A DNA stretch of 63,998 nucleotides, filler included, from Sanchytrium tribonematis (taxonomy: Eukaryota), in NCBI GenBank assembly GCA_018985235.1. It is 14 parts of 14 records of this genome, joined end to end, with 100 filler letters (N's around TTAATTAATTAA, not from the genome) between each part and the next. Parts side by side here need not be neighbours in the genome. Positions count along the whole stretch, not along the records: positions 1 to 18,665 come from JADGIG010000108.1; positions 18,766 to 20,970 come from JADGIG010001102.1; positions 21,071 to 23,261 come from JADGIG010001103.1; positions 23,362 to 25,549 come from JADGIG010001104.1; positions 25,650 to 27,831 come from JADGIG010001105.1; positions 27,932 to 30,112 come from JADGIG010001106.1; positions 30,213 to 32,389 come from JADGIG010001107.1; positions 32,490 to 51,134 come from JADGIG010000109.1; 6 more parts are not named here. The stretch is one strand, 5' to 3'. The first letter of the stretch is position 1. Every line of letters starts with the position of its first letter. Shown here one piece after another: positions 1,037 to 53,402 of the stretch. The translations under genes and the position numbers were made by a program. Below the pieces are notes generated by a model that had not been told where the DNA came from, ran no database searches, and saw nothing but the letters and a program-made list of their open reading frames with translations.

Positions 1037-2186
1037 ATGACAAAAAAAGTTGCATATTTATATCACTCAGATCTTCCAAACCATTACTATGATGTGTCTC
1101 ACCCAATGAAACCTAGCAGGATAAGAATGGCGCACAATTTGGTTCTTTCATATGGATTATTTAATCATATGGAATGTTTTGAAATTCAACCTGCTACTCT
1201 TAAAGAATTGACTCGATTTCATACCACGGACTATGTTCATTTTTTAAAGAAGGTGGGAGTTCATCAATCTAAACATGGACGGGATATTTCTAAATATACC
1301 ACAACTGATTGTCCAATGTTTGCCAATGTTTACGATTTTTGTTGTTTATCGAGCGGTGGAAGCCTAGATGCTGCGAACCTCTTGAAATCATATGATAAAG
1401 TTATTCACTGGGGAGGTGGGCTTCATCATGCCAAGGCTAATCAGGCTAATGGTTTTTGTTATACGAACGACATAGTGCTTGGAATTTGTGAATTACTGAA
1501 ATTTAATAGACGAGTTCTGTATTTAGATATTGATATCCATCACGGAGGTACATTTTATTAAAATAGACGGGGTGGAGGAAGCATTTTATGCAACAAACAG
1601 AGTTTGTACTGTCAGTTTTCATAGATACGGGGAATTCTTTCCAGGCACGGGTCATTACCGAGATATTGGAATAGGAGATGGACAGGGCTATGCGATTAAT
1701 GTACCATTAAAAGAAGGAATTGACGACGATTCTTATGAGTTTATTTTCCGGCCCATAATGGATGAAGTAATGCAATGGTACAAACCCGACTGCGTTTTTA
1801 TGCAATGCGGGGCAGACTCGTTGGCTGGGGACCGGCTCGGCCGATTTAATATTTCGATGAAAGGGCATGGTGCATGTGTTGAATATATGATGAAATTTAA
1901 TGTTCCAATGGTTATTACGGGTGGAGGGGGTTATTCTGTTAAAAATGTTAGCAAACTGTGGTGCTACGAAACATCCTTGGCCTGTGGAATCGAGTTGGAT
2001 CCACATCTACCGCCTACAGACTATTCTGAGTATTATGGACCAGATCACGTATTGCAAGTCCTGCCACAAGATGATTTGATTAATTTGAATTCAATTTCCG
2101 ATCTAGAGTATGTTAAAGGAAGAGTGTTAGAACAGCTCCGTAATGTCGAGCATGCTCCTAGTATACACGTCCCACAAAACAACTAA
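1037..2186 (+). CDS. RPD3: Class I histone deacetylase; join(1037..1547,1567..2186)
   Basis: HPMKP, GGLHHA, GFCY, DIDIHHG|DGVEEAFY restored by 19-nt intron, QCGADSL, GGGGY. Confidence 0.93.
1548..1566 (+). other. 19-nt GT-AG intron GTACATTTTATTAAAATAG (phase 1)
   Basis: Removal restores HDAC HHGDGVEE. Confidence 0.95.
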
Positions 2187-2815
2187 ATAGATTTAAGTTT
2201 TTCATGTACCCCCAAAAATAAACTGCCACCTAATCCAATCCAAAAAGTTCTGGGCAGCACGCCTTTAAATAATGCCTTTTGTGTGTAAGCCTCTTTGGCA
2301 ACTTCTGAGACAGTTTGTCTTGATAAAATAACTCTAGTTCTGATCACATCTAACGGTGTCGTGATGATAGCTGCAAACGATCCCGCAAAAATACTAGCCA
2401 TAAACAAATTATTTTCTTTAAAATACTCAAATATTGAAAATTGAATGATACTAAATGGAATATCTCTAAATAAAGTTAGCCTAAAACCACGAAATGGTCT
2501 AATGAAATTATTTTGAGAAACTTGCATATGAATTTTGTAATTATCGACCGGAACACGGACTAAGCACGCAGCAATCTCTCCAAATGTTGATCTTAAAAGT
2601 ACAGGTGCCTCAACATGATCGTATACACTGAAAAATAAACCTGCGCTTGGCATTGATCCTATCAAAACCGGGAGAAGACCTTTGTATATATTTTTGAAGC
2701 CACCAGCATTGAGAAAACCTTGTTTACTTTGCATGCGAGTTTTAACTGTGTCTAAAGGGAAAAGGCAAACGTCGACAACCAAACCAGAAATTGCCCCGCT
2801 AAAAAAGCCATGCAT
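2183..2815 (-). CDS. PET8: Mitochondrial carrier, S-adenosylmethionine carrier-like (short, 210 aa)
   Basis: FPLDTVKTRMQ, GEIAACLVRVP, TTPLDVIRTR carrier signatures. Confidence 0.85.
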   Translation of the reverse strand: MHGFFSGAISGLVVDVCLFPLDTVKTRMQSKQGFLNAGGFKNIYKGLLPVLIGSMPSAGLFFSVYDHVEAPVLLRSTFGEIAACLVRVPVDNYKIHMQVSQNNFIRPFRGFRLTLFRDIPFSIIQFSIFEYFKENNLFMASIFAGSFAAIITTPLDVIRTRVILSRQTVSEVAKEAYTQKALFKGVLPRTFWIGLGGSLFLGVHEKLKSI

Positions 2816-2829
2816 GTTACAAGGAAATT

Positions 2830-3942
2830 TTATTTTCTTCCGGTTTGCGGATATGGCAAAACATCAGCAATTTTGGTCTTCTTTAATAAAATCATTATCA
2901 GTCTGTCTACTCCTAGTCCCCATCCAGTGGTAGGTGGCATTCCGAGTCGAAGAGTATCAATATATTCCTTATCTATAGGATTATTTTTACCAATTGATTC
3001 TAACTTTTCCAGCTGGAGATCTGCTCCATTTTCTTCTTCGTAACAATTTATAAGCTCAATTCCGTTAAAATACAATTCAAAAGATTTGCTAATATTCGGA
3101 TTGTCATTTAGTCCCTGCTTTGCAAGAGGGCTGAGATATTTTGGGGATCCCAGAACAAATACAAAATAATCGGGATACTTCTTCAATTCAAGTTGAACTT
3201 CTTTTTCATAATGATGCTCAGAATATGCGCTCGAGTTTAATTCTATAAATTTTGGGAAATAATTCAAATATTTGTAGACAAAGGTATTCAGAAATGATTT
3301 TGTGAAGTTAATCCAATCATTAAGAGTCGTACCGGCCTCATATGCCTCACAGATCGTAAATTCAGGATGATGTGTATGATCCATTCCTTCGTTGCGGAAA
3401 ACTTTCGCTATTTCAAACACTTTGGGAAAACCAGCAACAATAAATCTTTTGAGATACAATTCTGGAGAAATTCTAAGAAACATTTGCTTATCAACTGATC
3501 GACAATGGGTTTTAAATGGAGTGGCAGTGGCACCACCATAAATAGGCTGAATAATAGGTGTTTGAACTTCCATGTACAGGTTGTTCAAATAGTACGATCT
3601 TATGTCTTGTAAGATAGAAAATCGACTACGCAAAATGCGCAGTTTGTCACTAACAATCATTTGCTCTGTTGCATTTTTGGAGTTTTTGCCAAAAGGAATA
3701 ATTTTCTCAGGTGATGCTAACTTCCTCACCGTTTGCGCAAAAAAACTATAAGAACTTCTTTTGCTATATCCAAAATCACCAGAAAATTCTACCACGTCTC
3801 CAATTCCAAGCGAAATATGATCAATTAGCTCGCCTTTTACAATGACCTGAATTTTGTCTATTCCATTGATATACAAATCGTAGAACTGCGCTGCTTTGTG
3901 AGATCTCTTCTTATGAATCCTTCCAAATATCTTGAGCGCCAT
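2830..3942 (-). CDS. Lysyl-tRNA synthetase class II (probably mitochondrial); N-terminus uncertain
   Basis: GGATATPF, LRISPELYLKR, FRNEG..HHPEFT, GMPPTTGWGLGVDRL. Confidence 0.9.
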   Translation of the reverse strand: MALKIFGRIHKKRSHKAAQFYDLYINGIDKIQVIVKGELIDHISLGIGDVVEFSGDFGYSKRSSYSFFAQTVRKLASPEKIIPFGKNSKNATEQMIVSDKLRILRSRFSILQDIRSYYLNNLYMEVQTPIIQPIYGGATATPFKTHCRSVDKQMFLRISPELYLKRFIVAGFPKVFEIAKVFRNEGMDHTHHPEFTICEAYEAGTTLNDWINFTKSFLNTFVYKYLNYFPKFIELNSSAYSEHHYEKEVQLELKKYPDYFVFVLGSPKYLSPLAKQGLNDNPNISKSFELYFNGIELINCYEEENGADLQLEKLESIGKNNPIDKEYIDTLRLGMPPTTGWGLGVDRLIMILLKKTKIADVLPYPQTGRK

Positions 3943-4118
3943 TGTGGACCAATTCCAAAATGTTCCAAATTTTCCCCAAATTTGACTTGGTCAAGTAGTT
4001 TCAAAATTCGCAGGGGATCAACAAATTCATTAGCGTCTGGATTTAGCATAGACACAATTTAACTTCTACTGCTTTTTATTCAGTCAAAATCAAGGGGTAC
4101 TGGCCTTGACACGTCGAA

Positions 4119-5550
4119 ATGAATAATGGGCAATTACAAATCGGAGACTATCAATTGGTAGAGACATTAGGTGTAGGCAGTTTTGGGAAAGTAAGGCTAG
4201 CCATACACCAACCCACAGGTATCAAAGTTGCACTTAAATTTATCAATCGCCAATTATTAAAATCTAAAGATATGCATGGTCGAGTGAAACGGGAGATAGA
4301 GTTTCTATTATTTTTAAATCATCCTCACATAATTAAATTATACACTACCTTTACAACAAGTTCAGACATAGTGATGGTCATGGAAGTTGCAGATGGGGAA
4401 TTATTTGACCTTATTGTGAAAAAGGGGAAAATGAGTGAAGATATTGGCCGAAGCTATTTTCAACAGATAATGTCAGCCGTGGAATACTGCCATCGGCATT
4501 GTATTGTTCACAGAGATTTAAAACCAGAAAATATCTTACTTTGTGGGAATATGATTCGAATAGTAGATTTTGGACTTTCTCAAGTCATAAAAGATGGTGA
4601 ATTTCTAAAAACGTCTTGTGGCAGTCCAAATTATGCTGCACCGGAAGTAAATTATACTTATTTAGGTAATTAGTGGTAAATTTTATGCAGGACCTGAGGT
4701 CGATATATGGAGTTGTGGGGTTATTTTATACGTTATGCTAGTGGGTAGACTGCCGTTTGATGACGAGTCTATTCCAAATTTATTTCAAAAAATTAATAAT
4801 GGAGTATTTGTTATTCCTTCTTTTTTGTCACCAGGAAGTGCAGATCTATTAAAAAAAATGCTTGTTGTGGATCCTTTAAAACGTGTGAGTATAAAAGAGA
4901 TTCGAGACACCGCTTGGTTTGTCGTTAATTTACCAGATTATCTTCAGCCTCTGCCCGAAGTTCAAGCATTTAATTCCGAGATATTGGACGAAAGTGCAAT
5001 TGATCAGCTCATTCACAAGCTACATGTGGATAAGGAGCATTTAGTGAATGCCCTTAAAAGTGAAAAAACGAATTCCAATCACCCTGTCACAGTGGCTTAT
5101 CAATTGGTTAGAGATAATATTCGTGTTTATTCTGACCCTATCCGTAAAGACATATCTATGAAACCCAGTCTTCAGCAGGATTCAAATATCCCCACACTAG
5201 AAGTCCTTTCAAGCAGTGTTCCAACATCTATGTCATTTCCAAAGCCAAGTACTGCAAAAAGTAAATGGCATGTAGGAATTAGGAGCCGAAGCAGTCCACT
5301 TCAGATTTTATACGAAATCTACAAAAGCATTTCAAAATTACCAATGAAATGGAAATCATTAGATCCGTTTTCATTGAGAGTTTTATACATTTACCATGAT
5401 TTGGAAATTAAGTTGGATTTACAGCTTTACAGCGTGGATACTAACTATTATTTATTAGACTTCCGAGCAGTACAACCGTCAATGATGAATGTCCTTGGCT
5501 TTTTTGAGGCATGTTGCTTAATTATCACTGAATTGGCAATAAATAGTTAA
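4119..5550 (+). CDS. SNF1: AMPK/Snf1 catalytic subunit; join(4119..4646,4666..5550)
   Basis: LKTSCGSPNYAAPE|VISGKFYAGPEVDIWSCG restored by intron; C-terminal KWHVGIRS domain. Confidence 0.95.
4647..4665 (+). other. 19-nt GT-AG intron GTAAATTATACTTATTTAG (phase 0)
   Basis: Removal restores YAAPEVISGK. Confidence 0.95.
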
Positions 5551-8137: not shown

Positions 8138-9755
8138 ATGATCATCAGAGTTCGTACAGCGAATGGTCAGTTTAGATTTGAAATCAGCAATGGAATTGAA
8201 GAACTCGCTCAATTAATTAATCAAGAATTAAAATATTCCACGTTCACTTTATCCTTAGACCCAAAGGGTCGCCAGCCAGTTGGCCAATTACAGCATGGAA
8301 TGCAAGTGTATCTCCAGTCTGAAATCGAAATACTTAGCACTTCAAAAAAAGAAACGCCAAAGACAACTTTGGAAGATAAGATACCGCAATTAAGTGCTCT
8401 TGATCAAATGCTATGGAAATCCGATGGGGAAGTTGCTCGATCAATATCTACAATGTGTAGACATGGTGATAAAGGCAAATGCTCCTATTGCTCCTCATTG
8501 GCTCCATACGACGCTGAGTATTTGTCAAGTCAAAATATAAAACATCTCAGCTTTCATTCATACTTGAAGAAATTGAAAGCTGACAAACCAGATTTTTTGA
8601 ACTTTATTCTTGAGGAAGATGAAATTAAAGCTGGCATTACCACGAAAAATGCTTCCACTAGCACCTTATCATCCACAGTGACTTTACAAAGACAAAAGTT
8701 TAGAATGGTGGATCATTTAGAATTTGAGACTCACGATATGGTGGACAAATTTCTCAAGTCATGGAGAAGTACTGGATCTCAGAGATTAGGCTGGCTTATT
8801 GGTTATTATGGTGCATATGACCAGGTTCCCTTAGGAATTAAAACCGTTGTTTGCACAATTTATGAACCGTCTCAGCACGGATTCGTAGACGGTGTTCAGG
8901 TTTACTATTTTCCTGGCCTTAGCTCTAGTACTGATGAATTTAAGCATGCAAAATTAGAGTTTGATCAGTTAAGGAATGTTTGTGAGCTTTTAGGACTTGA
9001 AATCGTAGTTATAATTTATGCAGGTGGGACTTATAATGACAGATTTGAAAGACGACGGAACATCGCAGGGCAAAGTTTTGCACAAAAGACACCTCGATAC
9101 ATATTTTTTGTCATCCCAGGAATGTCTTCTCGCGGGCATGCTTCAGAACGAATTTAAATACAAAACCCCATTAAGTAGCTCAAACGAATTTGGAAGTAGA
9201 TTTATAACTTGTGTAGCAAGTGGTAATAGTGATGGCGGGATTGAAATCGAGGCATATCAAGTTTCCAATGCATGTATGAGTCTTTGTAAAAACAATTTGA
9301 TTGAAGCAACTTTCCATCCAAACCATATGCAACTTAGAGATATACCACAAAAACCGACGTTGCAATACCGATACGTGGACAAATATGGGAACTCAGTTAG
9401 TGAGATAGCAAATCCAACTTTCCCGATTGAGTATATGTTATTAACTTTAACTCATGGCTTTCCACAACAAGCAAATCCATTTTTCAAGAGTACTAAATAC
9501 TTCAACATTGAAAATCGAATTACTGAACCACAAGAACCATCGTTACTCAAATCCTATTTTCAGTCGGAAACAGTACTCTTTGATTTGTCTAATCTACATG
9601 TAATTATGTTTTTGGTTAAAATGTCACTCCTAGATGACCAAACTACAAAGTTGATATGTGAAATTGCTAAAAATCCAGAAAGCGATCATTCAATGCAACT
9701 GTTTTCCTCTCCTGGCTGGCAAACATTGGAATTGTTGATACAAGATTATGAATAA
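8138..9755 (+). CDS. NPL4: Nuclear protein localization protein 4; join(8138..9004,9024..9755)
   Basis: CRHGDKGKCSYC, HLSFHSY, TLQRQKFRMVDH, VPLGIK; LGLEI|VGLIMTDL restored by intron. Confidence 0.94.
9005..9023 (+). other. 19-nt GT-AG intron GTAGTTATAATTTATGCAG (phase 0)
   Basis: Joins the two Npl4 ORFs in frame. Confidence 0.92.
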
Positions 9756-11191: not shown

Positions 11192-12968
11192 ATGAATAGA
11201 TCAAAAAGCAAAAATTCGGCGGAAAATCCTATTGTTAAACAAGACACATTGTTAAGAAAAACAATGAGCCGCGTCACTGCAATGATTGAAGAAGATTTTC
11301 TGCTAAACGAAGATAAAACAAGGAAAAGAAGGCTTTTTTGGAATTTTATCCACACTATATGGATTGCTATTGCGATAATCGCCCCATATATCATTGCAAT
11401 TAGTTTCCAATCTACTTTTTTGCTTGATTTTAAACCAACCAAAAAGGTAGACAGTGACATTTGGCTTACAAACGAAATTCTACTTTCGCAGGAAATGCAG
11501 AGATGGTCGATCTTATTATGCTCAGTATGGGCAGTTTTTGTTTTGGTCTACTCTATTTTGACTATAATCCCATTTTTCATATTTGAGTTTCTTAAAATAT
11601 TTGATTCCAATCCAGGTAAATTGACTCAAACAATTGCTTATTTGAAAGGGCTTAAAATTAGCATAGTGCGGCTTGCATGCTCAATTTGTTGTGCGTCTAC
11701 GTGTTCAGTGTTGTGGGGAGCATCTTCGCGGACACCGAATGACTTTTCTCTACCAAACTACATTTATATTGCGTTAGGATTATTCCAGTCAATTATATTT
11801 TATTGCTCCTGCCTATTGTTAAAAAAAATATTTATTATTAGTCTGTATTTCAAATTGCGAGAAAGAACCTATAAAGAACGTATCAGCTTCAGCAAGAAGG
11901 CAGTAAGTATGATAGAACATTTAAGGTCTGAAATAGGAAAAAAACTACATGCCGAAAAATTTCTGAGCGAAGCTAGATTGCATTGGAAGGAGGATATTGA
12001 GTTTTATAATTACGACAATCTTTTTGATAAGCTTGGCGTCGATCATGCCAAGGAAATATTTTTGGGTGTAGGAAAAGGAAAACATCATTTGATAGCAGGG
12101 GATTTTAAGCCCTACTTTCCTACCGAAGAGGAAGCGATTGCAGCATTTCAGATTTTCGCTGGAGACGAAGGCAAAACGGAGTTGCATGGAAAGGATTTAA
12201 AAGAAACCATAATCCAGATTTACAGAGAACGCAGAAGACTTAATGATAATATTCGAGATATGAATGGTTCTATTAGCAAACTAGAAGGAATCTTCAACGT
12301 GTTTTCATTAATTGTTTCCGCATTATTTTGTGTAGCCTATTTTGATAATTCATTTCTGCGGGCGAGTTTACCAATATTTTCAAGTATGCTGGCTCTTAGC
12401 TTTCTTTTCGCAGAATCTGCAAAAGAACTGTTCATCAATTGTATATTCTTATTCAAGTACATTTTGTTTACTTAGTATGCACCCCTTTGATACGGGAGAT
12501 ATAGTAGTCATTCGAGATGTGAATTACCGAGTTTTAGAAATGAGCTTGTATTATACCATATTCGAAAGATTAGACGGGCAGCAGACCTACATTGCTAATG
12601 CCATTTTAGCAAAGGAAGTTTTAAGAAATTTTAGGAGATCGGAAAATCAGGCAGAAGGAATTGAAATCCAGATTGACTACATGACACACCCAGATAAGAT
12701 TATGCACCTTGAAGAGCGGATGAATGAATATTATCGATCTAAAACAAATATGTATAGAAATCCTATAACTATTTCATACAAAGAGGTCCTGGAATCAAAT
12801 CGACTTACTATAGTTGTACCAGTTCTTTTTAAAAAAAATTGGCAGGATTGGAAAGCCAGAAGCATTGCCAGAAATGACATGATGAAGCTTCTTCAAAAAC
12901 AAATTTATGAATTAAAAATAGAATATAAACCATTAAAACAGACCATTAAAATGCTAAAAGAGCAATAA
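11192..12968 (+). CDS. MscS-like mechanosensitive channel (Msy1/2-type); join(11192..12456,12476..12968)
   Basis: TM helices, EF-hand-like segment, FLFN|MHPFDTGD restored by intron, NFRRS. Confidence 0.88.
12457..12475 (+). other. 19-nt GT-AG intron GTACATTTTGTTTACTTAG (phase 2)
   Basis: Removal gives FLFNMHPFD, the MscS core motif. Confidence 0.93.
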
Positions 12969-13930: not shown

Positions 13931-15440
13931 TTAAATGGGACGCAGTTCAAATCTTGAAAGGTATCTAATGAGCAAGGTATCAATGAAATGTTGATGTCTA
14001 TATAAAAACAAAATACTTAACTCCAGGGGACCTAGCAAGCTTGAAAGCTTGAAGCCCTTCCATAATATGATTCACAAATCCAAGTTTAAACATTGCTGCT
14101 ACTATCATAAAACCAGTTCTATTGAAACCATAATGGCAGTGAAGTGAAATCTCTCTATTTGGATATATTTCCCAATAGTCCTTGCAAAGATTCACAAAGT
14201 GTTCCACATCATCCTCTGAAGGTGGTATTTTGGATACAAATGATTGTTTGATGTACATGGGTTTAAGGCTATCACCTTTACATTCATATGGGGTATTTGA
14301 GCGATTGTATTTTATAAGTTTAGGGTGAATCGATTGAAATTGTGCGACATTGTATGGTGGAACGTCTCTACTCATATCAATAACAAGTCCTACATTTTCG
14401 TAATTTTCAATCAGCAATTTCGGATTGTGTTCATCGTCAATTTCTCTTAAAATTTTCATTGCCCTAAATTTTGAATTACCAATGAGGCCGCTGACTGGTT
14501 GAATTACTTTCCACTTTTTAAAATTTTTTAAAGCATAAGGGTCATCCATTTTGAATTCCTTGCTTTGACTAGGTGGATGGCACAAAATTTTAAGGTGTTG
14601 AAAAAAATGAGTAATGTATCCGATTGTACTAAATGGATCTTCGCTCATTACATTGTGCCCACAAGAAAGACCAACAATCGGGTAGGGATGTATCGCATTC
14701 GGAGCTATAGTTAATTTTCGAGTTAGTACACGTTTATATTCAAGCTGATCATAGCCATTTAAAAAGTTAAAAACTTCCAAGGTGCATTTGATAGGCGTAG
14801 ACTGATCATATTCTCCGACAATTAATTGAACTGGAACAATTATTTTGCGAAATAAATCGTCATCTGGCCATACAATTTGATTAAATATACCAAACAAAGT
14901 TTCTGTTCTAGACTGCTTATTCCATCTGGCTTGATCCATCTTAACTTGCTTACTAGCCGCGGGATAAAAAATATATTGTTTCACAGATTGGCCATAAATA
15001 CCACCAAATCGATAATACCACCTCCATAATTCAACAACCCATAAAGGCAACTTCACGAGACCCTTAACTCTTTCTAAATTGATTGTGTATTGAGATCCTA
15101 TGAAAACAAAACCCTTGACACTTTCTTTCAGAATGTTGTTCATGTAGACAGCAATTCCACAGCCCATAGAATGTGCAATTATTACAAACATTTTGTCTTC
15201 TGGTAATAAATCACAATACTGCTGAGCCATGTCTTGCAAATCATAACTTTGAGATGCTCCACTTTGTCCATGACCAAATAAATCAATGGATATGACATGA
15301 TAAGTACTACTAAAATAATTATAAATGGGTTTAAATTGTTCACTCTGCCCACCTAGTCCATGAATAAACACCAAGCATACCTTATTCGTGTTCATTTTTT
15401 CATATGTGGTCAAGTTGCCAAAACGTGTTTCCTTTAACAT
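13931..15440 (-). CDS. Alpha/beta-hydrolase fused to dual-specificity/RNA-triphosphatase-like phosphatase; complement(join(13931..13997,14017..15440))
   Basis: FIHGLGG, AHSMG, HCHYGFNRTG (HCx5R); PGVK|HQHFIDTL restored by intron. Confidence 0.88.
13998..14016 (-). other. 19-nt GT-AG intron GTATTTTGTTTTTATATAG (phase 2)
   Basis: Removal extends protein to PGVKHQHFIDTLLIRY. Confidence 0.9.
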
Positions 15441-15649
15441 GAATTTGAAAAACTCAATACAAAAGGGGTACAAAATCAGGCTACATTAACAAGGCTTCGC
15501 GTTGTTCAATGGGAGCATATAATTTATCATGAGACTATATAAATTTACAAAGTCTTGCACTCATTTGCGTCCACCAATCATGTGATCCAATGGTTTGACA
15601 TTGCCTCACGAAAAAGTATTAAAGCGGAAACTCCTCCTTTTGAATCATA

Positions 15650-17673: not shown

Positions 17674-18012
17674 ATGTCTACCAAGTACCTGTGCAAATAT
17701 TGTAATGTGTTTGTTCAAAATAATCCTTTGCAGAAGAAAAAGCATGAAAGTACACCACTTCATACCAAAAGGAGAGAAGAAAAGATACAAGAATCTTTAC
17801 AAACCAAGTTTGATGTTAACAAAAGGGTAGATTTTGGAAAAAAGATTCAAAAAGAAGAGACACTTTTAGTGGATCAAAACACTGGTTTGCCAGAGTGGGA
17901 AATATATGTACCACCTCCAAAAAAACCAATTGCACACTCTGGAGTAGAAAAAGATAGCGATATTAAAGAGATTGATAAAAAAGTTAATTTTAAAAAAAGA
18001 AACCGAAAATAA
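17674..18012 (+). CDS. U1/matrin-type zinc-finger protein (WBP4-like)
   Basis: KYLCKYCNVF...KHE...H zinc-finger pattern. Confidence 0.65.
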   Translation: MSTKYLCKYCNVFVQNNPLQKKKHESTPLHTKRREEKIQESLQTKFDVNKRVDFGKKIQKEETLLVDQNTGLPEWEIYVPPPKKPIAHSGVEKDSDIKEIDKKVNFKKRNRK

Positions 18013-21072: not shown

Positions 21073-23261
21073 TTTACATTTGACTCTGTTTATCCAAGTC
21101 AGACTGAAAATGAAGATGTTTTTAATGACGCGTGTTTACCACTCTTAAATCAGTTTATCCAAGGATATAATTGCACATTATTATGTTATGGACAAACAGG
21201 AAGTGGGAAAACATATACTTTGGGCACAGATATTAATTATCCGAATGGGTTGCTTCCAAATGCATTAAAATGGATATTCACAGAATCAAACACACTAGTA
21301 AACCCAAATATACAAGTATCCTTTTTAGAATTATATAATGAAGAGTTTATTGACTTGTTAAAATTGGAAAATGTAGTCAAAATAAGAGAAGTTGATAATA
21401 AATTGGTTTGGACTGGAGTGAATCAAACCAAATGCAATTCATTTTCAGATGCATTAGATTGTTTATATGCTGGATGTGCGAATAGAAAGACGGGATCTAC
21501 AGATATGAATTCTACTTCTTCACGGAGTCATGCCATTTTTGCTGTTGAATTACAACACGGTGAGACGATGAGTCGATTTTGTTTTGTGGATTTAGCAGGA
21601 AGTGAAAGATTAAAGCGAACCAATGCGAGTGGAATACGTCAAAAAGAAGGGATCAGCATTAATTCAGGGCTATTAGCACTTGGAAATGTGATTTATGCAT
21701 TAAGTGAGCAGAATCAAAGACAACATATCCCATATCGTGATTCTAAATTGACTAGAATATTGCAGGACTCGTTGGGTGGTAATTCACTTTGCACGATGAT
21801 TTGTTGCATTTCTCCCTCTGACACGGATTTGCAAGAAACTTTGAATACTTTGAAATATGCAAGTCGTGCTAGAGAAATACAGAATCAGGCCATACGTAAT
21901 TTAATAGATAGTGATAATGATGTTGAGAAATTAAAGGAATTAGTTCGAAACTTAAGACGAGAAAATGAAGAATTGAAGAATTCTAATTATTTTCACCCTA
22001 CAAATGACTTACTACTTAAAGAAAATAAGGAATTGAAAATGGAATTAATGATGGTCAAGGCTAAATATGATGATTTATCAGCTGGAATCCAATTAAATGA
22101 AATTGGAAAAATGGGAGAATCTGAGAAATATAAAATGTACCATTCCATCATTGAGCAATTAAGAAAAAGATTAAGAAAGTTTAGAAGAATGTTCCAGCCA
22201 CATCAACGACAATCCTGGTCTAAAAATGATCAGGATCCAGAATGGGAAGATTTAGAAATATCAGATTCTAGTGATTCTGCTTCCAATTCAGACAATTCAC
22301 AATTAGATCAAGCATTAAATACCATTCAAGGCAATATTGACGCACAAGAAGATATGTTAAAAGCATTAGAATCTTCTCAAAAAGAAATAGAAATTATTAA
22401 ATTGAAATATGAGCATAAAATTGAAGATTTGACTCGTAAATGTCAAGTAATTAGCAAAGAACGGGATATATTTTTGAAGAAATCAACAGACAGTGCACAA
22501 ATTATATCCATTAGACAGAGATATGAACAAGAAATTAATAAAATTCAGTCAGAATTGGTAGAATTAAAAAGAAAGCATTTAGAGAGTGAAAAAGCATTAG
22601 AGAAGATTAGACAGAAAGCCAATGATGATTTAAATACCATGAAAACGAGTATATCTGATTTAAGAAAGGAGAAATCTAAATTAATGGCCCAATTAAAAAA
22701 TGAGAATATTAGAGCCAGAAGGGAAACCATAAAGAGTGAAAAGGAAGTATTGAAATTAAAGAGAAAAGAAATGAAATCTGAGCACCTCATTAAGAAATAT
22801 GAGCATCAAGTGGAACTACAGGTCATTTTAATTAATTTAGAAGAATTTGCTGAGCACTAGATCCCATGATACCATTCATATTAAGAGAAAATGGCAAAAA
22901 GCATTGGTATTAATGAAAAAGAAGGGTATTTCTTTAGATGGTGTCAATTTAAAACGACGAGATTCTTCAAAAGATGTCTCTGAAATCAAGAATTCTATTG
23001 ATAAATTCATAGATTTGAACTCTACTGCGCGTCGTAATACATTTCAGTTGGAAGAATTAATAAAAAAACAACGACTTATGGTGGAAGAAAAACTTCGATT
23101 GATTGATGAAAGAGAAAATTTATCAAAACAATCTGATTCTGTCAATTTAAAGTATATTGATGATAGATTTGAGAATATTGAAAGTGATTTAGATGTTGTA
23201 GTATCCCGTATTAATGAAATCAAGTTTCTAGTGGCTCAAGTAGACTCAAATGACAATGAAT
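21073..23261 (+). CDS. Kinesin-4-like motor, truncated at both ends; intron 22822..22840
   Basis: YGQTGSGKTYT, NSTSSRSHAIF, DLAGSER, HIPYRDSKLTR; long coiled coil. Confidence 0.9.
22822..22840 (+). other. 19-nt GT-AG intron GTCATTTTAATTAATTTAG (phase 0)
   Basis: Joins ELQ to KNLLSTR in the frame of ORF 22847. Confidence 0.88.
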
Positions 23262-35568: not shown

Positions 35569-35763
35569 TCACTTTTTCTTTTTTGATGCCAAAACAAGTA
35601 AAGTGCACAAAACACTGATCCCAGTGATCAATAAGGTAAAGGGGATTTTAATAGCAAAATCTCGTCTAGGGAACCAGTCAAAACCAAATGGTTGCAAAAA
35701 TACCCACGCGGTATAATAAACAAATATCAAGGAGCCAAGACCCATCAAGAGTAATCCAATCAT
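35569..35763 (-). CDS. DPM2: Dolichol-phosphate mannosyltransferase regulatory subunit
   Basis: IFVYYTAWV..PF..FP..FAIKIP; C-terminal KKKK. Confidence 0.85.
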   Translation of the reverse strand: MIGLLLMGLGSLIFVYYTAWVFLQPFGFDWFPRRDFAIKIPFTLLITGISVLCTLLVLASKKKK

Positions 35764-37333: not shown

Positions 37334-37432
37334 TTTAATGTTTGAAGTTCTCCTAGTCATTATATAATAACTTCAACTCCTACTCGGATTTTAATGGTCA
37401 AACAATAATGAAATTCACTTAAGGGGAATAGT

Positions 37433-38579
37433 TTATTGTTGCGAAAGAACAGACGGCTGTTTTTTAACTGCTAAATCTGCCCGCGAAATATTAGCAGAGG
37501 ACCTTGGGCCGTGGCTTTGCTCTCTACTTTCCTTTAAAGCCAACAATTGCCTAGTTCTGAAAAATTCATAGTGGAATAATGCCGTGCTTTCAACCAAATC
37601 ATGCAAATGAGTTCTACATGAAAAAATATTACTGTAACAAAAATTTTTTTAAATGAATAAATTCACAATGATTTGGGTCCTCAATATTAATAATAGCACC
37701 CCAATAAGTTTTACGGCCTCGAATTAATTTGCCGCCCTCCTTCGAGTCTGCTGGAATCAAAGTTTCACTTCCGATAATGGCAAAAGGCATAAGATCTCTA
37801 ATTTTCTGGTTAAGGTTTAGTTGCTCCTCGTGGACCTTTTGTAGCTCTTCATCGTCATACTTTGATCTTTCCCGGTCTGGATGGTATGGGTCTGAGTCAT
37901 ACGGATATAAGCGAATGCCATGAAATTGAAACTCTTCTTGAACCCTTTTTTTAAAATTAACCCTTTCGTCTAAGGTCAAGGCATCAGATTTCGCAATGAC
38001 TGGGATAACGTTACAAATATCGCCAAGCAATTTCAGAGCTAAAATATCCAGAGGCTTTAATGCATGTCCAGATGGAGAAATAAAGTACAAGATGCAGTGA
38101 ACACGAGTATCGTCAATAAACTTTTCACGAGCAGCAGTCAGTTCTCTTCTGAGATAGAGTGTGTACTGTTCTTTTATATATTTCAAAATATTTTCCATTG
38201 CGTTTTCATTGTTGATTCCTAGTCCGAATCCAGGAGTATCAATTAAATTTAAATGCATACTAATTCCGTTTTCAGCTAGATTAAAGTGATTTAATTTAAT
38301 TTGAGTGGTCCCATTGTCTTCAATTTTACTCGCATCATGCTTTACTAAGTTGGCACCGAACAATGAGTTGATAAATGTAGTTTTACCTAGTCCTGAACAT
38401 CCAACCACCATAATATTAAAATTAAATCCTCTCAACTTTAATTTTGATTGCATTTGTGAAGGATAACTGTCAATACCCACGTTTTTCAAGCTAATTTTAA
38501 GAATCTTTTCTACAGTTTCGTTAAGGCTAGGAGTTGGAGAATCTTCTATTTGATTTGAGATATCTTGTTGAGATTCCAT
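37433..38579 (-). CDS. Septin (Cdc10-like); complement(join(37433..37613,37633..38579))
   Basis: GCSGLGKTT, DTPGFG, DTRVHCILYFI, AKSD; FLLQ|THLHDLVEST..HYE.FR restored by intron; no C-terminal coiled coil. Confidence 0.92.
37614..37632 (-). other. 19-nt GT-AG intron GTAATATTTTTTCATGTAG (phase 2)
   Basis: Restores the septin unique element. Confidence 0.94.
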
Positions 38580-38651
38580 CTTATTTGTTTCAAAAAATAA
38601 ATTCAACTATTTATTAAGGATTTTTTCTTAAACGGCAAAGATATTCCTACG

Positions 38652-39377
38652 TTAGTATATGGTACTGGAAGGTGAATATGAATTTCTCGGGGTGTTTAGA
38701 ATATCCATGGGGGATTTAACTGAGCTTGCAATAGAACAAGTATCGTTTGAAAATTTTGGTGCTTGGCTTCGATGAGAGTTAAATTTGAAGCTGCTTTTGT
38801 TAGAGTTGTGCCTATTCGATTGTGTATTCACTGGTGTTTGCTTATTCATATCGTACATGTGTTGTAATTTTTGACAAATGCGAGTCTTTTGTTGAAGTTG
38901 GGATTGTAGCTCGCTAATTGTTTTCTTATCTTTTTCTCTGGATGACTCTAATGATTGAAATCTTCTCTTCAGCTCTCTCAGTTCATGTCCGTTATTTTGC
39001 TCAAACTGCTGCATCTTACTTTTTTCTGCTTTATATTTTTGTACGGCTTGTTTATACATCATTTCTTGCAAATTTATTTCTTGGGTTACTTGGTACATGT
39101 ACATGCTTATCGATCTAAAGCAGATATCCTGAACAATTTCAGGCGAAAGGCCTGCTAATACTTGGCTTTTGTAAGTTTCATTTGGATTTAAGTCCATTTG
39201 TTGAATATCGTACTTGTCATTTAGGCTTGTATGACACACTGGACAACTAAGCTGATGTGAAAAGGCTCTATTAGCACAACTAGTACAAAATATATGAGAG
39301 CAAGCTGTTGCGTAAGCTGTTCCTTGTAGCCTTTTTCTACAATTGAGATTATTGCATTTTAATGTAAATTCTTCCAT
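38652..39377 (-). CDS. HEI10: Meiotic RING E3 ligase Hei10/CCNB1IP1
   Basis: LKCNNLNCR..ATACSHIFC..C..CPVC..LNP..YK..VLAGLSP; coiled coil. Confidence 0.85.
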   Translation of the reverse strand: MEEFTLKCNNLNCRKRLQGTAYATACSHIFCTSCANRAFSHQLSCPVCHTSLNDKYDIQQMDLNPNETYKSQVLAGLSPEIVQDICFRSISMYMYQVTQEINLQEMMYKQAVQKYKAEKSKMQQFEQNNGHELRELKRRFQSLESSREKDKKTISELQSQLQQKTRICQKLQHMYDMNKQTPVNTQSNRHNSNKSSFKFNSHRSQAPKFSNDTCSIASSVKSPMDILNTPRNSYSPSSTIY

Positions 39378-47044: not shown

Positions 47045-47050
47045 TAAAGT

Positions 47051-47724: not shown

Positions 47725-47770
47725 ATTTATTTTTATTTAATAATTCAGTGACAATTATAATATAAAGATG

Positions 47771-48727
47771 TTATTCTTGTTGCTCTTTACCCCAGTCTAC
47801 CTTAATTGGCCTTCCATTCAGCATTTTTCCATTTAAAGCAAATATGGTTTTCGCTGCAGACTCATGGTTTTGTAATTTCGCAAAAGCCATTCCAGTGTCG
47901 CTATTAAATCGAAATTCCTGTAATTTACCATACTCTAGTACCATTTTTTGAAGTTCCGCTTGCTTAACGAGTGAACTGACATTGCCAATATAAATAGATT
48001 TGTGCCATTCTGGGGTCTTTTTGAGAATTTCTTCATAATTCGCAGAGGTCGAATACGAATTAATCAAGTGAATATTTCGATTCTGATCATTTTGTTGAGT
48101 CTTCTGGTTTGCCCAGTTGACGCGAAGAAATCTGTTACCAAGCTGTTGACCATTCATTTCCGCAATTGCTTTTTCGGCGTCACTTTTCTCACGAAACGCA
48201 ATAAAACCATAACCTCGACTTCTAGCGGTGTTGGGATCCACCATGATCCTTGCGTCGCTAAGACTTGGGTATTTGTTGAATACCTCTCGCAACATTTCGT
48301 CATCAACTTCGTTTGATAAGTCACCTACAAATACGTGACTATGTGTACTAGTGTCTTGCTTAGGTAGGGATACAGTACCTTGGGATGCATATTGTACTTT
48401 CATAGCTTTTCCATATAAATATATTCCATTCAACAATATGTGAACAGAATCGGCAGCGTTTCGATCCGGTAGTTCCACAATTCCTATATTCGAATGGCCA
48501 GCAACGCTTCGATCAGCTATCACCTTCACGCTTATGACAGGTACCATAACAGCGATGATGCTATGCAGTAAGACATCTGTAACTTTTGTATCTAGATTAC
48601 TGATGTACACTGCCCGACATGTATCTTGTTTATTGGTAGGTGGCTCGTAAATTTGGCGAAGTTCAGTCCATAGTTCAGGCGGCACAATTGTATGTGGAGC
48701 GGTGATTGCAATTGGTAATTTATTCAT
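47771..48727 (-). CDS. PUB1: Pub1/TIA-1 family triple-RRM RNA-binding protein
   Basis: HVFVGDLSNEV, SDARIM.D..T.RSRGYGF, LRVNWA, third RRM ending WGK. Confidence 0.85.
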   Translation of the reverse strand: MNKLPIAITAPHTIVPPELWTELRQIYEPPTNKQDTCRAVYISNLDTKVTDVLLHSIIAVMVPVISVKVIADRSVAGHSNIGIVELPDRNAADSVHILLNGIYLYGKAMKVQYASQGTVSLPKQDTSTHSHVFVGDLSNEVDDEMLREVFNKYPSLSDARIMVDPNTARSRGYGFIAFREKSDAEKAIAEMNGQQLGNRFLRVNWANQKTQQNDQNRNIHLINSYSTSANYEEILKKTPEWHKSIYIGNVSSLVKQAELQKMVLEYGKLQEFRFNSDTGMAFAKLQNHESAAKTIFALNGKMLNGRPIKVDWGKEQQE

Positions 48728-48748
48728 TTAAAATTTGATACAAGGAGA

Positions 48749-49991
48749 ATGACTATTCCGTTTTCTAATATTTTAATTGAGGCCAGCAAATATCCAGACT
48801 TAGAAACTAAAAATATTAAAAAATTCACCAAACTACTTAAATATTTGTACCCCGAAGCCTCCATTACTTTAAACAAAAAAGGGACAAGTAAGGTCAAGTT
48901 TTACGATTTTCAAATCATAATTCTCCTTAATCCGCAAAGCGTTCTTAGCAATGACGAAATATCTCAATTCCAAGAATATGTTAAAAACAAAGGAAATCTA
49001 ATTCTTTTCGTAAATCATTCAAATTCTACTGTTTTGCAGAATTTAAATTTCTTGCTAGAATCATTTCACATGAGTATCAATAATGATCAGGTTATTAGAA
49101 CTTCTTACAAAAAAGGATACTATCATCCCAAATGTGCTTTTATAAAAGAGGGTGTTTTAAATCGGTCCATTTCTCACCATTATAAACTGGAAAAGAATGA
49201 ATTTCATATACTTTATCCATTTGGGCACACTATTAATTGTAATTATCCATCAATTCCATTACTTGGAACAGGAATGCAATGCTATCCCGTCAATCGACCA
49301 GTTGCGGCTCTATATGACAATTCACAAAGTAAAGTTTTTGTATGTGGTTGTTTTCAATTAATCACAGACAAATATTTTGATTCTTTAGAAAATTCGAAAT
49401 TTATCGAATACGTCTTGCTCTTTTTAAAAGGCGACTTAAAATTAGATGAGTTGGATGTCCGAGAATCTGGAATTAATGAATATCATCATGTCAGCGAGAT
49501 CAATGAACTTGCAAATCAGCTACAATACGGAATAGAAGAATGTGATACATTAGAGACTGACATGAAAAAATTGCATGTCAAGGAAGTGTATCATCTATCC
49601 ACTAAATCTTATTCAGTCCTACGACAAGTATACGAAAATTTACAAATACCACTAGAACCGTTAATATTAATACCACCTGAATTTTTGACACCACTTCCCA
49701 CACTTAAAATGGCTTACTTCCCACCAGTGATGCGTACCGGTCCTTCTGCTCCATTGGAACTTTTTGATTTAGATGAGCATTGCGCTTCTGAGCGGGAAAG
49801 GCTAGGAATGACGGTCAACAAATGTATTTTATTTTGATGTAGGCAAGGATGATGACTTGGATTATTTTATTGTAGAGTCAGGAAGAATTCTAGACATAAA
49901 TCTCAAAACCCCCAAAGAGGTACTGTCACATGTTTTACTCAAGTGCTTAAAATGGAAAATGTTGGATCCTAGTCGATTCAAAGAAGAGTAA
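48749..49991 (+). CDS. IFT52: Intraflagellar transport protein 52; join(48749..49823,49843..49991)
   Basis: YYHPK, GVLNR, CYPVNRP, LIPPEF.TPLP.L, LELFDLDE..SE; NK|CKDDDLDYFI restored by intron. Confidence 0.9.
49824..49842 (+). other. 19-nt GT-AG intron GTATTTTATTTTGATGTAG (phase 1)
   Basis: Adds the conserved IFT52 C-terminal segment. Confidence 0.92.
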
Positions 49992-49993
49992 AT

Positions 49994-51064: not shown

Positions 51065-51234
51065 TATGTGACAAAGTTTTACAAAATTTATTTCACACTT
51101 TCTTGTTTAATTTGAAAATTCTTGTTTCCGATCGNNNNNNNNNNNNNNNNNNNNNNNNNNNNNNNNNNNNNNNNNNNNTTAATTAATTAANNNNNNNNNN
51201 NNNNNNNNNNNNNNNNNNNNNNNNNNNNNNNNNN

Positions 51235-51959
51235 GGCCATGTAGTCATTAATACACCACTCAATAGATTATCTGTGAGTGAATAATATTGGATTTGATTT
51301 GGGACATGGGTGATAATGCCAGTTAACAAGTTACTTTCCAATGAAACAGAAATTAATGAATCTGGTAAATAATTCACTTCTCCGTTGAATTGGTTATTAA
51401 ATCCTTGTAATTGAGTTAATCCAGATGGCAATGATGGAAAACTACCAGTAAATGCATTGTAAGATAAATACAATTCTGTCAATCCAGGTGGCAACACAGG
51501 AATAGAAGCATTTAAATTGTAATTTGCAGTCAAATCTAGAAATGTCAAACTAGTTGGTAATGTACTTGGAATAGATCCGTATAATCTATTTGAATTCAAA
51601 TCAAGGATGCTAATGGTATTGGGTAAATTAGATGGGATTTTAGTGGATAATTGAAAATTAGCAGTCACCATGAGTCTTGTAACGCCTTTTGGGATACTAG
51701 ATACATTAAACACCCCATTAATATTTAAATTAATCACTTGAATGGCAGTGACAGCACCAGAAGTACAAAATATACCTATTTTACTGAGTGGTGTCAAATA
51801 TGGGGTAAATGTGCTGGTACTTTGGTAATTACAACAAATTTGAGGTATTTTATTGAATTCTGATGTATCTGTGATATGCATCTTTAATGATTTGAAGAAT
51901 GTCATGGTTGAACTACAATCTGTAGCATGTAAAATGAAAAACAAGATGAATGAAAACAT
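51235..51959 (-). CDS. Secreted LRR protein, 3' truncated
   Basis: Signal peptide, DC..CC..C N-cap, LDLxxNxLxG repeats. Confidence 0.85.
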
Positions 51960-52017
51960 TTCAAGTTTCGTGATTGATATATTTCAAGCCACAAATCTCG
52001 ACGACATTTATTGACAA

Positions 52018-53402
52018 TCAATTTATTGAAATATCAAATGACTTGTTCATAGTACTTTTAGATACTTTTGTTTTTCTCCTTTTCAAGGTGAAAGTATCAG
52101 TGAGCACATAAACAATTAATCCCAAACTGATAAATATTCTAGCAAACACTGGTACGCTAATAGTTAATTCAATTGGGGATATATTGGCACTCCATTTTTC
52201 AAAAATCATTGAAACACTGCTTGAGCTTGAAGAAATTGGCTCTGTTTCTGGTTCTAATGAGAAATCAGTTGTATATTCTACAAATGATGTCGATTTAGCA
52301 ACAAATACAGGACCTATATGAGTCAAATGAACGTGTCACAATGGCGATTTCAGGTGGTTTCACACTTTTAATTGTAGATTCTGCAATAATTATACTTGTC
52401 TGACTTTGTGAAATGCTTTTTACAGTACTATTTACAATGATACTTAGATTATTTGCACAAATATACCCTGTATTCGCAAATAATTTAGTTTTTGTGCAAA
52501 TGGATGGTAATTGATCTAATCCAACTGCATTTAACAATGGATTATTATCTAATTCACAATCAGTTAATGTAGAATTATCAATAATAGTCACGTTTGTAAT
52601 CAAATTGCCAAAAATAGCCAAACTTATTGGTTTTTGAAACACTATAGGACCTCGAAATTGATTTCTAAACATATAACATGTTGTACATCCTACCACTACA
52701 TCAAAACAACCAGTAAATGGATTGTCATTGATATACAAAGTAGGAACTTGCAGGAATGACTGTGGAAATACCCCTGTCAATAAATTATAATCCAACGACA
52801 AGAAATCTAATTTATCAGGTAAATCAGCTGTAATTTCACCAGACATGAGATTATAACTAACGGAGAAATAGTAAACATGACGGGTGATGCGATCAAGGGT
52901 ACCATTGAATGAATTTACATCCAGTATCACTTGTTTTAAAGTATCTGGCAAATGATTGATTGATCCTGTTAATTGATTACAATACACTAATAAATACTGC
53001 AATCCACTTGGTAAATCATTTGGGATATCCCCACTTAAATCATTATAGTCTAAATACAATTTAATCAAATTAGGTGGCATTTTAGGGATATTTCCAGTCA
53101 AATGATTGTTACTAAATGATAATTGAGTCAAATTAATTGGTAATGTAGTCGGAATGGGTCCATATAAACTATTACCGCCTAAATCAAGATAATCTAATGA
53201 ATCTGGCAAATCATTTGGTACCAAAGTAGTTAATTGAAGATTTGAAGAAATAATTAAATTTTTAATATTTTTGGGTAAACTGGTTGAATTAATAAACCCG
53301 TTAATATTTAGATTGATTACTTGTATTGTAGTGACTTGTGTAGCTGTGCAATTGATTACTATATCATGATAGGGTGTGTCATATGGCGTATAAATGCTAT
53401 TA
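52018..53402 (-). CDS. Membrane-anchored LRR protein, 5' truncated; intron 52314..52332
   Basis: LRRs, C-cap, S/T stalk; intron joins C-terminal TM exon. Confidence 0.85.
52314..52332 (-). other. 19-nt GT-AG intron GTTCATTTGACTCATATAG (phase 1)
   Basis: IVTR|PVFV joins two ORFs; same context as intron 23725..23743. Confidence 0.9.

What the first reader, a model, noticed from the sequence alone, without database searches (positions are those of the whole stretch)
1548..52332. All 11 detectable introns are exactly 19 nt: a fixed-length tiny-intron splicing system
Seen: GT-AG introns at 1548-1566 (HDAC), 4647-4665 (SNF1), 9005-9023 (NPL4), 12457-12475 (MscS), 13998-14016 (phosphatase), 22822-22840 (kinesin), 23725-23743 (LRR), 30365-30383 (HRD1), 37614-37632 (septin), 49824-49842 (IFT52) and 52314-52332 (LRR). 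Each is 19 nt and restores a conserved motif or joins two ORFs in frame. They occur on both strands, in all three phases and on six contigs. Known: comparably tiny introns occur in heterotrich ciliates (15-16 nt) and chlorarachniophyte nucleomorphs (about 18-21 nt); typical fungal introns are much longer and variable. Inference: this fungus-like lineage has a spliceosome that measures intron length. I do not know whether this has been described for this organism. Standard gene callers would fragment these genes.
Basis: partly seen in the sequence, partly recalled or inferred. Interest (0 to 1): 0.92.

Follow-up and report, generated by a model that had tools for sequence, protein, structure and literature searches.

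The report
Nineteen-base introns in sanchytrid fungi
Eleven genes in this DNA, likely from a sanchytrid (a tiny fungal parasite of algae), are interrupted by inserts of exactly 19 bases with one shared layout; these are very likely spliceosomal introns, would be among the shortest known in fungi, and are left unspliced in public protein records of these genes.

Summary
Confirmed and extended. All 11 intervals are 19-nt, AT-rich GT..YAG inserts that rejoin reading frames. Blind scans peak at 19, and homologues pick the 19-nt junction in 5 of 5 genes tested.

New here: all 11 have T at position 12 and A at position 14. This looks like a degenerate U2 branch site 5 nt before the 3' end, the spacing seen in Stentor. 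A likely 12th intron has an exact TACTAAC in that register.

The septin groups with Amoeboradix gromovi (80% identity), so the window is likely a sanchytrid fungus. All five relatives' septin ORFs break at the same junction. Read-through tails of two relatives fit only 19 nt; a third does not fit 19. Three intron sites are shared with distant eukaryotes, so these are likely shrunken ancestral introns, not new mobile inserts.

Splicing is not shown by RNA, and n = 11 still allows up to 24% other lengths. I found no description for sanchytrids in nine literature searches. This scan had not noted it before; it has a related note on 26-29-nt Rozella introns. A likely new, independent case of near-fixed tiny introns.

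The parts
1548..1566 (+). 19-nt intron, phase 1, in RPD3-type histone deacetylase (gene about 1037-2186)
   Evidence: Pfam Hist_deacetyl 1-154 then 156-296
4647..4665 (+). 19-nt intron, phase 0, in SNF1/AMPK kinase (4119-5550), after YAAPE
   Evidence: best of 7 alternatives against 20 homologues; 7 unspliced fragments of other eukaryotes break at the same site
9005..9023 (+). 19-nt intron, phase 0, in NPL4 (8138-9755); the only CAG acceptor
   Evidence: best of 10 alternatives, with a 16-nt one second; same site broken in P0045, P0046 and P0446
12457..12475 (+). 19-nt intron, phase 2, in MscS-like channel (11192-12968)
   Evidence: best of 11 alternatives against the intron-less paralogue at 15650-17650
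13998..14016 (-). 19-nt intron, phase 2, in alpha/beta-hydrolase plus RNA-triphosphatase-like phosphatase fusion (about 13931-15440)
   Evidence: exon 1 aligns to capping enzyme up to its last residue; the 22-aa last exon continues in the same register
22822..22840 (+). 19-nt intron, phase 0, in kinesin-4/KIF21-like gene
   Evidence: joins 583-aa and 140-aa frames and carries the motif; a 22-nt AAG alternative lacks the branch A; no homology test
23725..23743 (-). 19-nt intron, phase 1, in LRR membrane-protein gene; the host gene has a frameshifted stretch near 24580 and may be a pseudogene
   Evidence: same junction context (IVT|RP) as the paralogue at 52314
30365..30383 (+).
   Evidence: RING model ends at 42/44 at the exon end and splicing restores the last Cys
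37614..37632 (-). 19-nt intron, phase 2, in septin Cdc10 (37431-38579)
   Evidence: best of 8 alternatives; 5 of 5 close relatives' ORFs break here; retained and spliced isoforms at this site in Paraphelidium
38647..38665 (-). candidate 12th intron, 19 nt, phase 1, with exact TACTAAC at positions 9-15, at the 3' end of a HEI10-like RING gene (name recalled); splicing would add 13 codons
   Evidence: 1 of 6 TACTAAC sites in the window; no homology test
49824..49842 (+). 19-nt intron, phase 1, in IFT52 (48749-49991)
   Evidence: best of 4 alternatives; exon 2 carries Pfam Itf52_C; relative P0288 reads through a 19-nt-compatible insert at this site
52314..52332 (-). 19-nt intron, phase 1, in second LRR membrane-protein gene
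   Evidence: no homology test beyond the paralogue
34801..35481 (-). SF3B4/Hsh49 (U2 snRNP protein) gene, intact
   Evidence: E 4.5e-61 to human SF3B4

Best explanation
The 11 inserts are 19-base GT..YAG sequences with an invariant T at position 12 and A at position 14, and they are likely U2-type spliceosomal introns of a sanchytrid fungus that have shrunk from ancestral introns to a near-fixed size. Shown by sequence: a short GUA-type 5' end with no G at +5, a U-rich stretch at positions 9-15 that can pair with the U2 branch-recognition motif, and YAG three bases after A14+2. Inferred mechanism: U2 snRNP binds positions 9-15 and bulges A14. A14 attacks G1 to give a 14-nt lariat loop with a 5-nt tail, and the YAG at a fixed distance is used as the 3' splice site. 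Nineteen bases is about what is needed for a 6-nt 5' site, a 2-nt linker, a 7-nt branch helix and NYAG. Deletion bias likely eroded surviving introns to this floor, while most introns were lost (about 0.2 per kb). Because the sequence signals are weak, the constant spacing likely also serves in recognition. Since 19 is 3n+1, any retained intron shifts the frame and meets an early stop.
For: Observation and chance tests. T12 and A14 in 11 of 11; 9 of 200,000 within-intron shuffles give two invariant columns. Mean U2 pairing is 4.64 of 6 at A14; 16 of 20,000 shuffles with T12/A14 held fixed reach it. The GUAGUA motif is from PMC13685798; the pairing register is recalled. A 12th candidate has exact TACTAAC in register. 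Relatives: 5 of 5 septin ORFs at 78-81% identity, including A. gromovi, end at the same junction. The tails of P0052 (septin) and P0288 (IFT52) fit only length 19 with all five constraints visible; chance per tail is 1.4-2.5%, and 0 of 14 non-sanchytrid tails fit. Ancestral sites: septin shared with the aphelid Paraphelidium (retained isoform P0112, spliced isoform P0444), SNF1 with 7 other fragments, NPL4 with 3. Spliceosome present: SF3B4 in the window; Prp8, Brr2, SF3B1 and a U2AF subunit annotated for A. gromovi (supplement of PMC8371127). The 5-nt tail matches Stentor (PMC9505925).
Against: No transcript evidence; splicing and the branch A are inferred. n = 11, with a 95% upper bound of 24% for other lengths. 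3n introns without stops are only weakly excluded: the motif count shows no peak at 18 or 21. The relative P0439 (90% SNF1 identity) lacks the window's SNF1 intron and breaks 11 codons later, with a tail that fits 18 nt (without T at -8), 22-23 nt or 20-21 nt, not 19. So 2 of 3 informative relative tails fit. Cryptic 19-nt motifs are not depleted in exons (4 against a mean of 4.9 at other lengths). No sanchytrid-like fragment was found for NPL4 or SNF1 at the window's sites (full-length forms were outside the searched lengths). At IFT52, 3 distant fragments break one base off the window's site. The single-gene septin tree does not recover the published sister relation to Blastocladiomycota.
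Confidence: 0.8

Rival explanations
1. Hard molecular ruler: the sanchytrid spliceosome accepts essentially one geometry, choosing the 5' site by distance from the U2-bound branch rather than by U1 pairing, so 18- or 20-nt introns are spliced poorly or not at all. This is a stronger form of the best explanation, not exclusive of it.
For: 0 exceptions in 11 (12 with the candidate). G at +5 in 0 of 11. The minimal motif occurs 218 times in sense-strand exons over lengths 15-60 but only 4 times at 19, so length carries much of the specificity. Two relatives keep 19 at sites with unrelated intron sequence.
Against: The P0439 tail does not fit 19. Four cryptic 19-nt motifs sit in apparently intact ORFs. 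The known tiny-intron systems all show a minor second length: 15/16 in Stentor, 16/17 in Mikrocytos, 18-21 in nucleomorphs. U1 status was not tested.
Confidence: 0.35
2. Small-sample effect: introns have a narrow but real spread (about 18-25 nt, mode 19) or a long tail, and this window shows only the mode.
For: n = 11; P0439; frame-based detection cannot see stop-free 3n introns.
Against: Blind scans show no second peak. 20- and 22-nt introns would be as visible as 19-nt ones, and none was found inside a gene.
Confidence: 0.3
3. Recent spread of a 19-nt mobile element (introner-like) that explains the identical length.
For: Identical length; some sites are patchy among relatives (SNF1).
Against: Interior identity between introns averages 0.58 (maximum 0.80), as expected of AT-rich sequence. 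Terminal direct repeats are 0-4 nt. Three sites are shared with distant eukaryotes, and the septin site with 5 of 5 relatives.
Confidence: 0.04
4. Non-spliceosomal removal (Ire1-type, as for the 19-nt Candida albicans HAC1 intron), programmed DNA excision, or ribosomal frameshifting over the inserts.
For: A 19-nt fungal intron removed by Ire1 exists (PMC8044019). No RNA was seen here.
Against: GT..YAG ends and a U2-compatible branch site in all 11. No CNGCNG-type motif (recalled Ire1 consensus) at both ends of any of 11. In-frame stops lie inside or just after the inserts. No joined form in X1 DNA contigs over the first contig.
Confidence: 0.03
5. Assembly errors or pseudogene lesions that happen to be bounded by GT and AG.
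For: Two unrelated frameshifts without GT..AG exist in the window (kinase near 56200, LRR near 24580).
Against: Identical length and motif in 11 genes, several of them essential; the same break in five relatives from other assemblies; no indels in X1 contigs.
Confidence: 0.01

Closest known systems
Heterotrich ciliate tiny introns (Stentor coeruleus 15-16 nt; PMC9505925, passages seen)
   Same: Near-single length, AU-rich, GUA 5' end, branch A at a fixed position leaving a 5-nt tail; a minority of genes carry introns (18% there, 11 of 56 gene models here).
   Different: 19 rather than 15 nt, so 3n+1 rather than 3n; lariat loop of 14 rather than 10 nt; clearer U2-pairing signal (invariant T at -2 from the branch A); an unrelated lineage (fungi).
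Mikrocytid introns (Mikrocytos mackini 16-17 nt; PMC10245619, section 7 and passages)
   Same: A parasite with a very narrow length class (217 of 224 at one length), 3n+1 mode.
   Different: Those are few (224 per genome) and highly conserved in sequence, with a strongly reduced spliceosome. Here they are denser (about 0.2 per kb) and sequence-degenerate; spliceosome reduction was not tested.
Chlorarachniophyte nucleomorph introns (Bigelowiella natans 18-21 nt; PMC6009652 and PMC2483917, passages)
   Same: Same size class, described as 19-nt introns; GT-AG; AT-rich.
   Different: There no branch adenosine is discernible, density is about 3 per gene, and the genome is a relict endosymbiont nucleus. 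Here the branch site is invariant and the genome is a fungal nucleus.
Short introns of other Holomycota and animals (Encephalitozoon about 25 nt, Rozella about 30 nt: PMC6349667; myxobolids median 22 nt: PMC13644364, part 1 of 3)
   Same: Parasites with compact genomes and shrunken introns, in the same supergroup.
   Different: Longer and variable in length. Microsporidian introns are 5'-biased with strong motifs; these lie at 0.37-0.96 of the coding length in the 8 complete genes and have weak 5' sites.
Fixed branch-point-to-AG spacing in Yarrowia, Trichomonas and Giardia (PMC2483917, passages)
   Same: Branch site anchored at a constant distance from the AG, no polypyrimidine tract.
   Different: Only the 3' spacing is fixed there, with a strong ACTAAC-type motif; here the 5' spacing is constant too and the motif is degenerate.
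Candida albicans HAC1 19-nt intron (PMC8044019, passages)
   Same: 19 nt, fungal.
   Different: A single gene, removed by Ire1 and not by the spliceosome; unrelated.

Membership tests
U2-type spliceosomal intron | GT..AG termini whose removal restores the protein | tested here: met
   11 of 11 termini; homologue-optimal in 5 of 5; Pfam/PDB continuity for HDAC, RING and phosphatase
U2-type spliceosomal intron | Branch-point A within a U2-pairing motif near the 3' end | tested here: met
   T12 and A14 in 11 of 11; pairing 4.64 of 6; shuffles 16 of 20,000; sequence-level only
U2-type spliceosomal intron | 5' splice site able to pair with U1/U6 (usual G at +5) | tested here: inconclusive
   GTA in 9 of 11, T at +6 in 10 of 11, G at +5 in 0 of 11; the organism's snRNAs were not available
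U2-type spliceosomal intron | Major spliceosome encoded | tested here: met
   SF3B4 in the window; Prp8, Brr2, SF3B1 and U2AF listed for A. gromovi; no snRNA in the window
U2-type spliceosomal intron | Removed from mRNA through a lariat | not testable with these tools
   no transcript data at hand
Fixed-length tiny-intron systems (Stentor/Mikrocytos type) | More than 90% of genome-wide introns at one length under 20 nt | tested here: inconclusive
   11 of 11 in 64 kb, upper bound 24%; 2 of 3 informative relative tails fit; no whole genome held
Fixed-length tiny-intron systems (Stentor/Mikrocytos type) | Branch A at a fixed position with a 5-nt tail | tested here: met
   against PMC9505925
Introner / mobile intron family | High sequence similarity among copies, terminal repeats, novel sites | tested here: not met
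Ire1-spliced (HAC1-type) intron | CNGCNG loop motifs (recalled) at both junctions, non-GT-AG ends | tested here: not met
   0 of 11
Sanchytriomycota (organism placement) | Groups with a named sanchytrid in a protein tree | tested here: met
   septin 80% to A. gromovi against 52% or less to other fungi; clade support 1.00; one gene only, species not determined
Sanchytriomycota (organism placement) | About 35% GC compact genome retaining part of IFT-B | tested here: met
   GC 34.3%, median intergenic gap 32 nt, IFT52 present; published values in PMC8371127

The most novel reading that the evidence does not exclude
Sanchytrids are the first fungi, and the first opisthokonts, with a one-size intron system. 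Essentially all of roughly two thousand introns per genome (extrapolated) are 19 nt, because a remodelled spliceosome picks the 5' splice site by a 13-nt distance from the U2-bound branch A, with little or no U1/U6 sequence reading (no G at +5). They would be the shortest spliceosomal intron class in the animal-fungal supergroup and a natural ruler spliceosome closely related to the yeast models.
Probability: 0.35. Interest if true: 0.88.

Novelty: new variant of a known kind. Interest (0 to 1): 0.76.

Why it matters
It likely adds an independent origin of near-fixed tiny introns, inside Fungi, where snRNAs and proteins can be compared directly with the yeast spliceosome structures. Unlike nucleomorph introns of the same size, these show their anatomy (branch site, both spacings). 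That makes the long-open question of the minimal spliceable intron, and of floor versus ruler, directly testable, for example in yeast reporters. The convergence on the same 5-nt tail as Stentor points to a general steric constraint. In practice, the published sanchytrid proteomes were made by ORF calling on contigs with TransDecoder (PMC8371127). If the rate here holds (11 of 56 gene models), about a fifth of genes are truncated or split, which may affect gene-loss claims for this phylum.

Tried and rejected
No whole genome is held for the window, so no genome-wide histogram could be made. The run search listed one DNA holder and no RNA holder; this says nothing about expression. The second half of the introns could not be checked against X1 contigs. 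The metagenome scan with the sanchytrid septin alignment returned 2 loci at 45-49% identity, neither a sanchytrid; they were not analysed further. Rfam found nothing in the window at the gathering threshold or at E <= 1. The NPL4 and SNF1 homologue searches listed no sanchytrid-like fragment ending at the window's junctions; P0439 surfaced only as a cluster member. The treekit run gave no output and was replaced by a FastTree tree of 28 chosen septins. The alignment of LRR exon pieces was uninformative. The protein atlas gave no answer for the RING gene. Rejected as introns: the 23 non-19 calls of the gene finder, which mostly fuse neighbouring genes or sit at contig ends (eight regions inspected); its 19-nt call at 32575-32593 (inside an open frame); the frameshifts at about 56200 and 24580 (no suitable GT..AG); and 19-nt motif hits inside intact ORFs (29395, 39026, 48592, 60711) or on the antisense strand (42515, 52470). 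Depletion of cryptic 19-mers in exons was tested and not seen. Alternative genetic codes were not needed: complete genes end mostly in TAA (34 of 41 models).

Full report
1. Observation. The window is 14 contig pieces joined by 100-nt spacers, 34.3% GC. It is very gene-dense: 56 gene models cover 57.5 of 62.7 kb, with a median intergenic gap of 32 nt. All 11 intervals are 19-nt GT..YAG inserts of 20% GC, on both strands, in all three phases and on six contigs. Left in, each gives a stop within 1-50 codons.

2. Chance and exact length. A blind test joined long ORFs through any GT..AG of 8-100 nt. A crude gene finder with a flat length prior picked 19 nt for 10 of 33 introns and no other length more than twice. 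Its other calls were mostly gene fusions or contig-edge artefacts. For SNF1, NPL4, septin, IFT52 and MscS, the 19-nt junction scored best against homologues among 4-11 frame-restoring alternatives. HDAC, the RING gene and the phosphatase are supported by Pfam or PDB continuity. Kinesin and the two LRR genes rest on frame joining and the motif only. DNA run X1 shows 34 substitutions and no indels over the first contig, none in its five introns; it may be the window's source, so it is not independent.

3. T at position 12 and A at position 14 are invariant in 11 of 11; 9 of 200,000 within-intron shuffles give two invariant columns. Positions 9-15 read as an AU-degenerate form of the yeast branch sequence. 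Mean pairing with the U2 GUAGUA motif is 4.64 of 6, the best of ten registers, and 16 of 20,000 shuffles with T12/A14 fixed reach it. The motif is from PMC13685798 passages; the register is recalled. The 5' site is weak: GTA in 9 of 11, T at +6 in 10 of 11, G at +5 in none. Counting the AT-rich motif by length gives 14 at 19 nt and 0-9 at the other lengths from 12 to 40. The scan also gave a likely 12th intron, 38647-38665(-), with exact TACTAAC in register. It overlaps the apparent stop of a RING gene, and splicing would leave a 23-nt gap to the septin start. It has no homology test.

4. Organism. The septin's five closest relatives are 78-81% identical and the next hits 52% or less. One of the five is EukProt's Amoeboradix gromovi; four are unnamed Logan/ENA records. 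They form one clade with the window at support 1.00 in a tree of 28 chosen septins, although the deeper position is unreliable and does not match the published one. GC content and IFT52 agree with published sanchytrid features (PMC8371127 passages). The window is therefore likely a sanchytrid; the species was not determined.

5. Relatives. All five relatives' septin ORFs stop 0-5 residues after the window's junction. Because these are unspliced gene calls, their tails can be back-translated. P0052 (septin, tail QYFPFI-stop) and P0288 (IFT52, 56% identity, tail CNYYSYRQDR-stop) are each compatible only with length 19 when T-8, A-6 and YAG are all visible. For P0288 the implied exon 2 can start C-K-T-D, against C-K-D-D in the window. 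A random tail fits 1.4-2.5% of the time, and 0 of 14 non-sanchytrid tails fit. The A. gromovi, P0048, P0049 and P0050 tails are too short to inform on length. Against strict constancy: P0439, 90% identical over SNF1 exon 1, reads straight through the window's site and breaks 11 codons later with a tail that fits 18, 20-21 or 22-23 nt but not 19. I could not see its DNA.

6. Origin. The septin site is shared with the aphelid Paraphelidium, where one transcript isoform is retained and another spliced at that point (P0112, P0444). Seven unspliced SNF1 fragments of other eukaryotes break at the window's site, and a partial Trifolium model ends there. Two more break at P0439's site. Three NPL4 fragments break at the window's site. 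At IFT52, three distant fragments break one base off, which is inconclusive. The introns are not similar to each other beyond composition and lack terminal repeats. The reading is differential loss plus shrinkage of ancestral introns, not a mobile element.

7. Mechanism. Shown: the sequence layout, its statistics, its conservation in two relatives, and spliceosome genes (SF3B4 in the window; Prp8, Brr2, SF3B1 and U2AF in the A. gromovi annotation table). Inferred: U2-dependent branching at A14, a 14-nt loop with a 5-nt tail, and a size set by 5' site plus linker plus branch helix plus NYAG. Erosion to a functional floor is the model proposed for mikrocytids (PMC10245619 section 7). That spacing also aids recognition is suggested by 218 exonic matches of the bare motif over lengths 15-60 against 4 at 19; but cryptic 19-mers are not depleted. 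Floor and ruler cannot be separated here.

8. Literature. Near-fixed tiny introns are known in heterotrich ciliates, mikrocytids and chlorarachniophyte nucleomorphs. Short but longer ones are known in microsporidia, Rozella and myxozoans. For sanchytrids I found no description in searches; search 59 concerned nucleomorphs. In the genome paper and the TPPP paper the word 'intron' occurs only in a reference title, and proteins were called with TransDecoder on contigs. In the genome paper's supplements, file 2 could not be searched and file 4 was cut when stored. The library lacks most subscription journals, so a report elsewhere cannot be excluded. What I saw of each paper: passages of PMC8371127 (plus supplement searches), PMC10459994, PMC9505925, PMC13685798, PMC6009652, PMC6349667, PMC8476143, PMC2483917 and PMC8044019; part 1 of 3 of PMC13644364; part 1 of 6, passages and section 7 of PMC10245619. 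The EukProt records of the window's NPL4 and SNF1 are unspliced read-through ORFs. The scan's own notes hold nothing on this genome or protein and an unchecked note on 26-29-nt Rozella introns.

9. Verdict. The feature is real (about 0.95) and very likely spliceosomal. It is a new variant of a known kind, in a new lineage and with a readable anatomy. Exact genome-wide constancy and an active ruler remain open. Interest 0.76.

Noticed in passing
window 38647-38665 (-): Likely 12th 19-nt intron with exact TACTAAC, hiding a 13-codon last exon of a HEI10-like RING gene (name recalled; would hint at meiosis in this lineage).
   Followed up: partly
window, 8 complete intron-bearing genes: Introns lie at 0.37-0.96 of the coding length, none in the first third, opposite to the 5' bias reported for microsporidian introns; the motif scan found no convincing 5'-end candidates.
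   Followed up: partly
P0439 (ENA relative) against window 4647-4665: A close relative lacks the window's SNF1 intron and appears to keep another old one 11 codons downstream: reciprocal loss of two ancestral introns. Its length does not fit 19.
   Followed up: partly
window 55902-56856 and 56990-57510 (-): Two tandem degraded protein-kinase copies with frameshift or internal deletion and no GT..AG at the breaks; likely pseudogenes.
   Followed up: partly
window 23435-25355, 51235-53402, 61474-62414: At least four signal-peptide LRR/FNIP-repeat genes on short contigs, an expanded surface-protein family; two share an intron before a C-terminal hydrophobic segment, and one has a frameshifted stretch near 24580.
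   Followed up: partly
window 11192-12968, 15650-17650, 32490-33723, 30631-31887: Three MscS-like mechanosensitive channel genes (two with EF hands; the third named by likeness) and a Mid1 calcium-channel subunit within 64 kb.
   Followed up: no
window 34801-35481, 17674-18012, 47771-48727: Splicing-related genes: SF3B4/Hsh49, a small U1-type zinc-finger protein, and a three-RRM Pub1/TIA-1-like protein (last name recalled).
   Followed up: partly
window 53503-55655 (+): Retrotransposon-like ORF with an integrase zinc-binding domain, cut by the contig end.
   Followed up: no
window about 35575-35760 (-): Small intron-less hydrophobic ORF resembling DPM2 (recalled), below the ORF list's size cut-off.
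   Followed up: no
window 15441-15649: A 209-nt intergenic stretch with inverted-repeat character and no Rfam match; possible unannotated RNA or bidirectional promoter.
   Followed up: partly
P0048, P0049, P0050, P0052, P0288, P0439: Unnamed Logan/ENA records show at least four further sanchytrid-like lineages in environmental data.
   Followed up: partly
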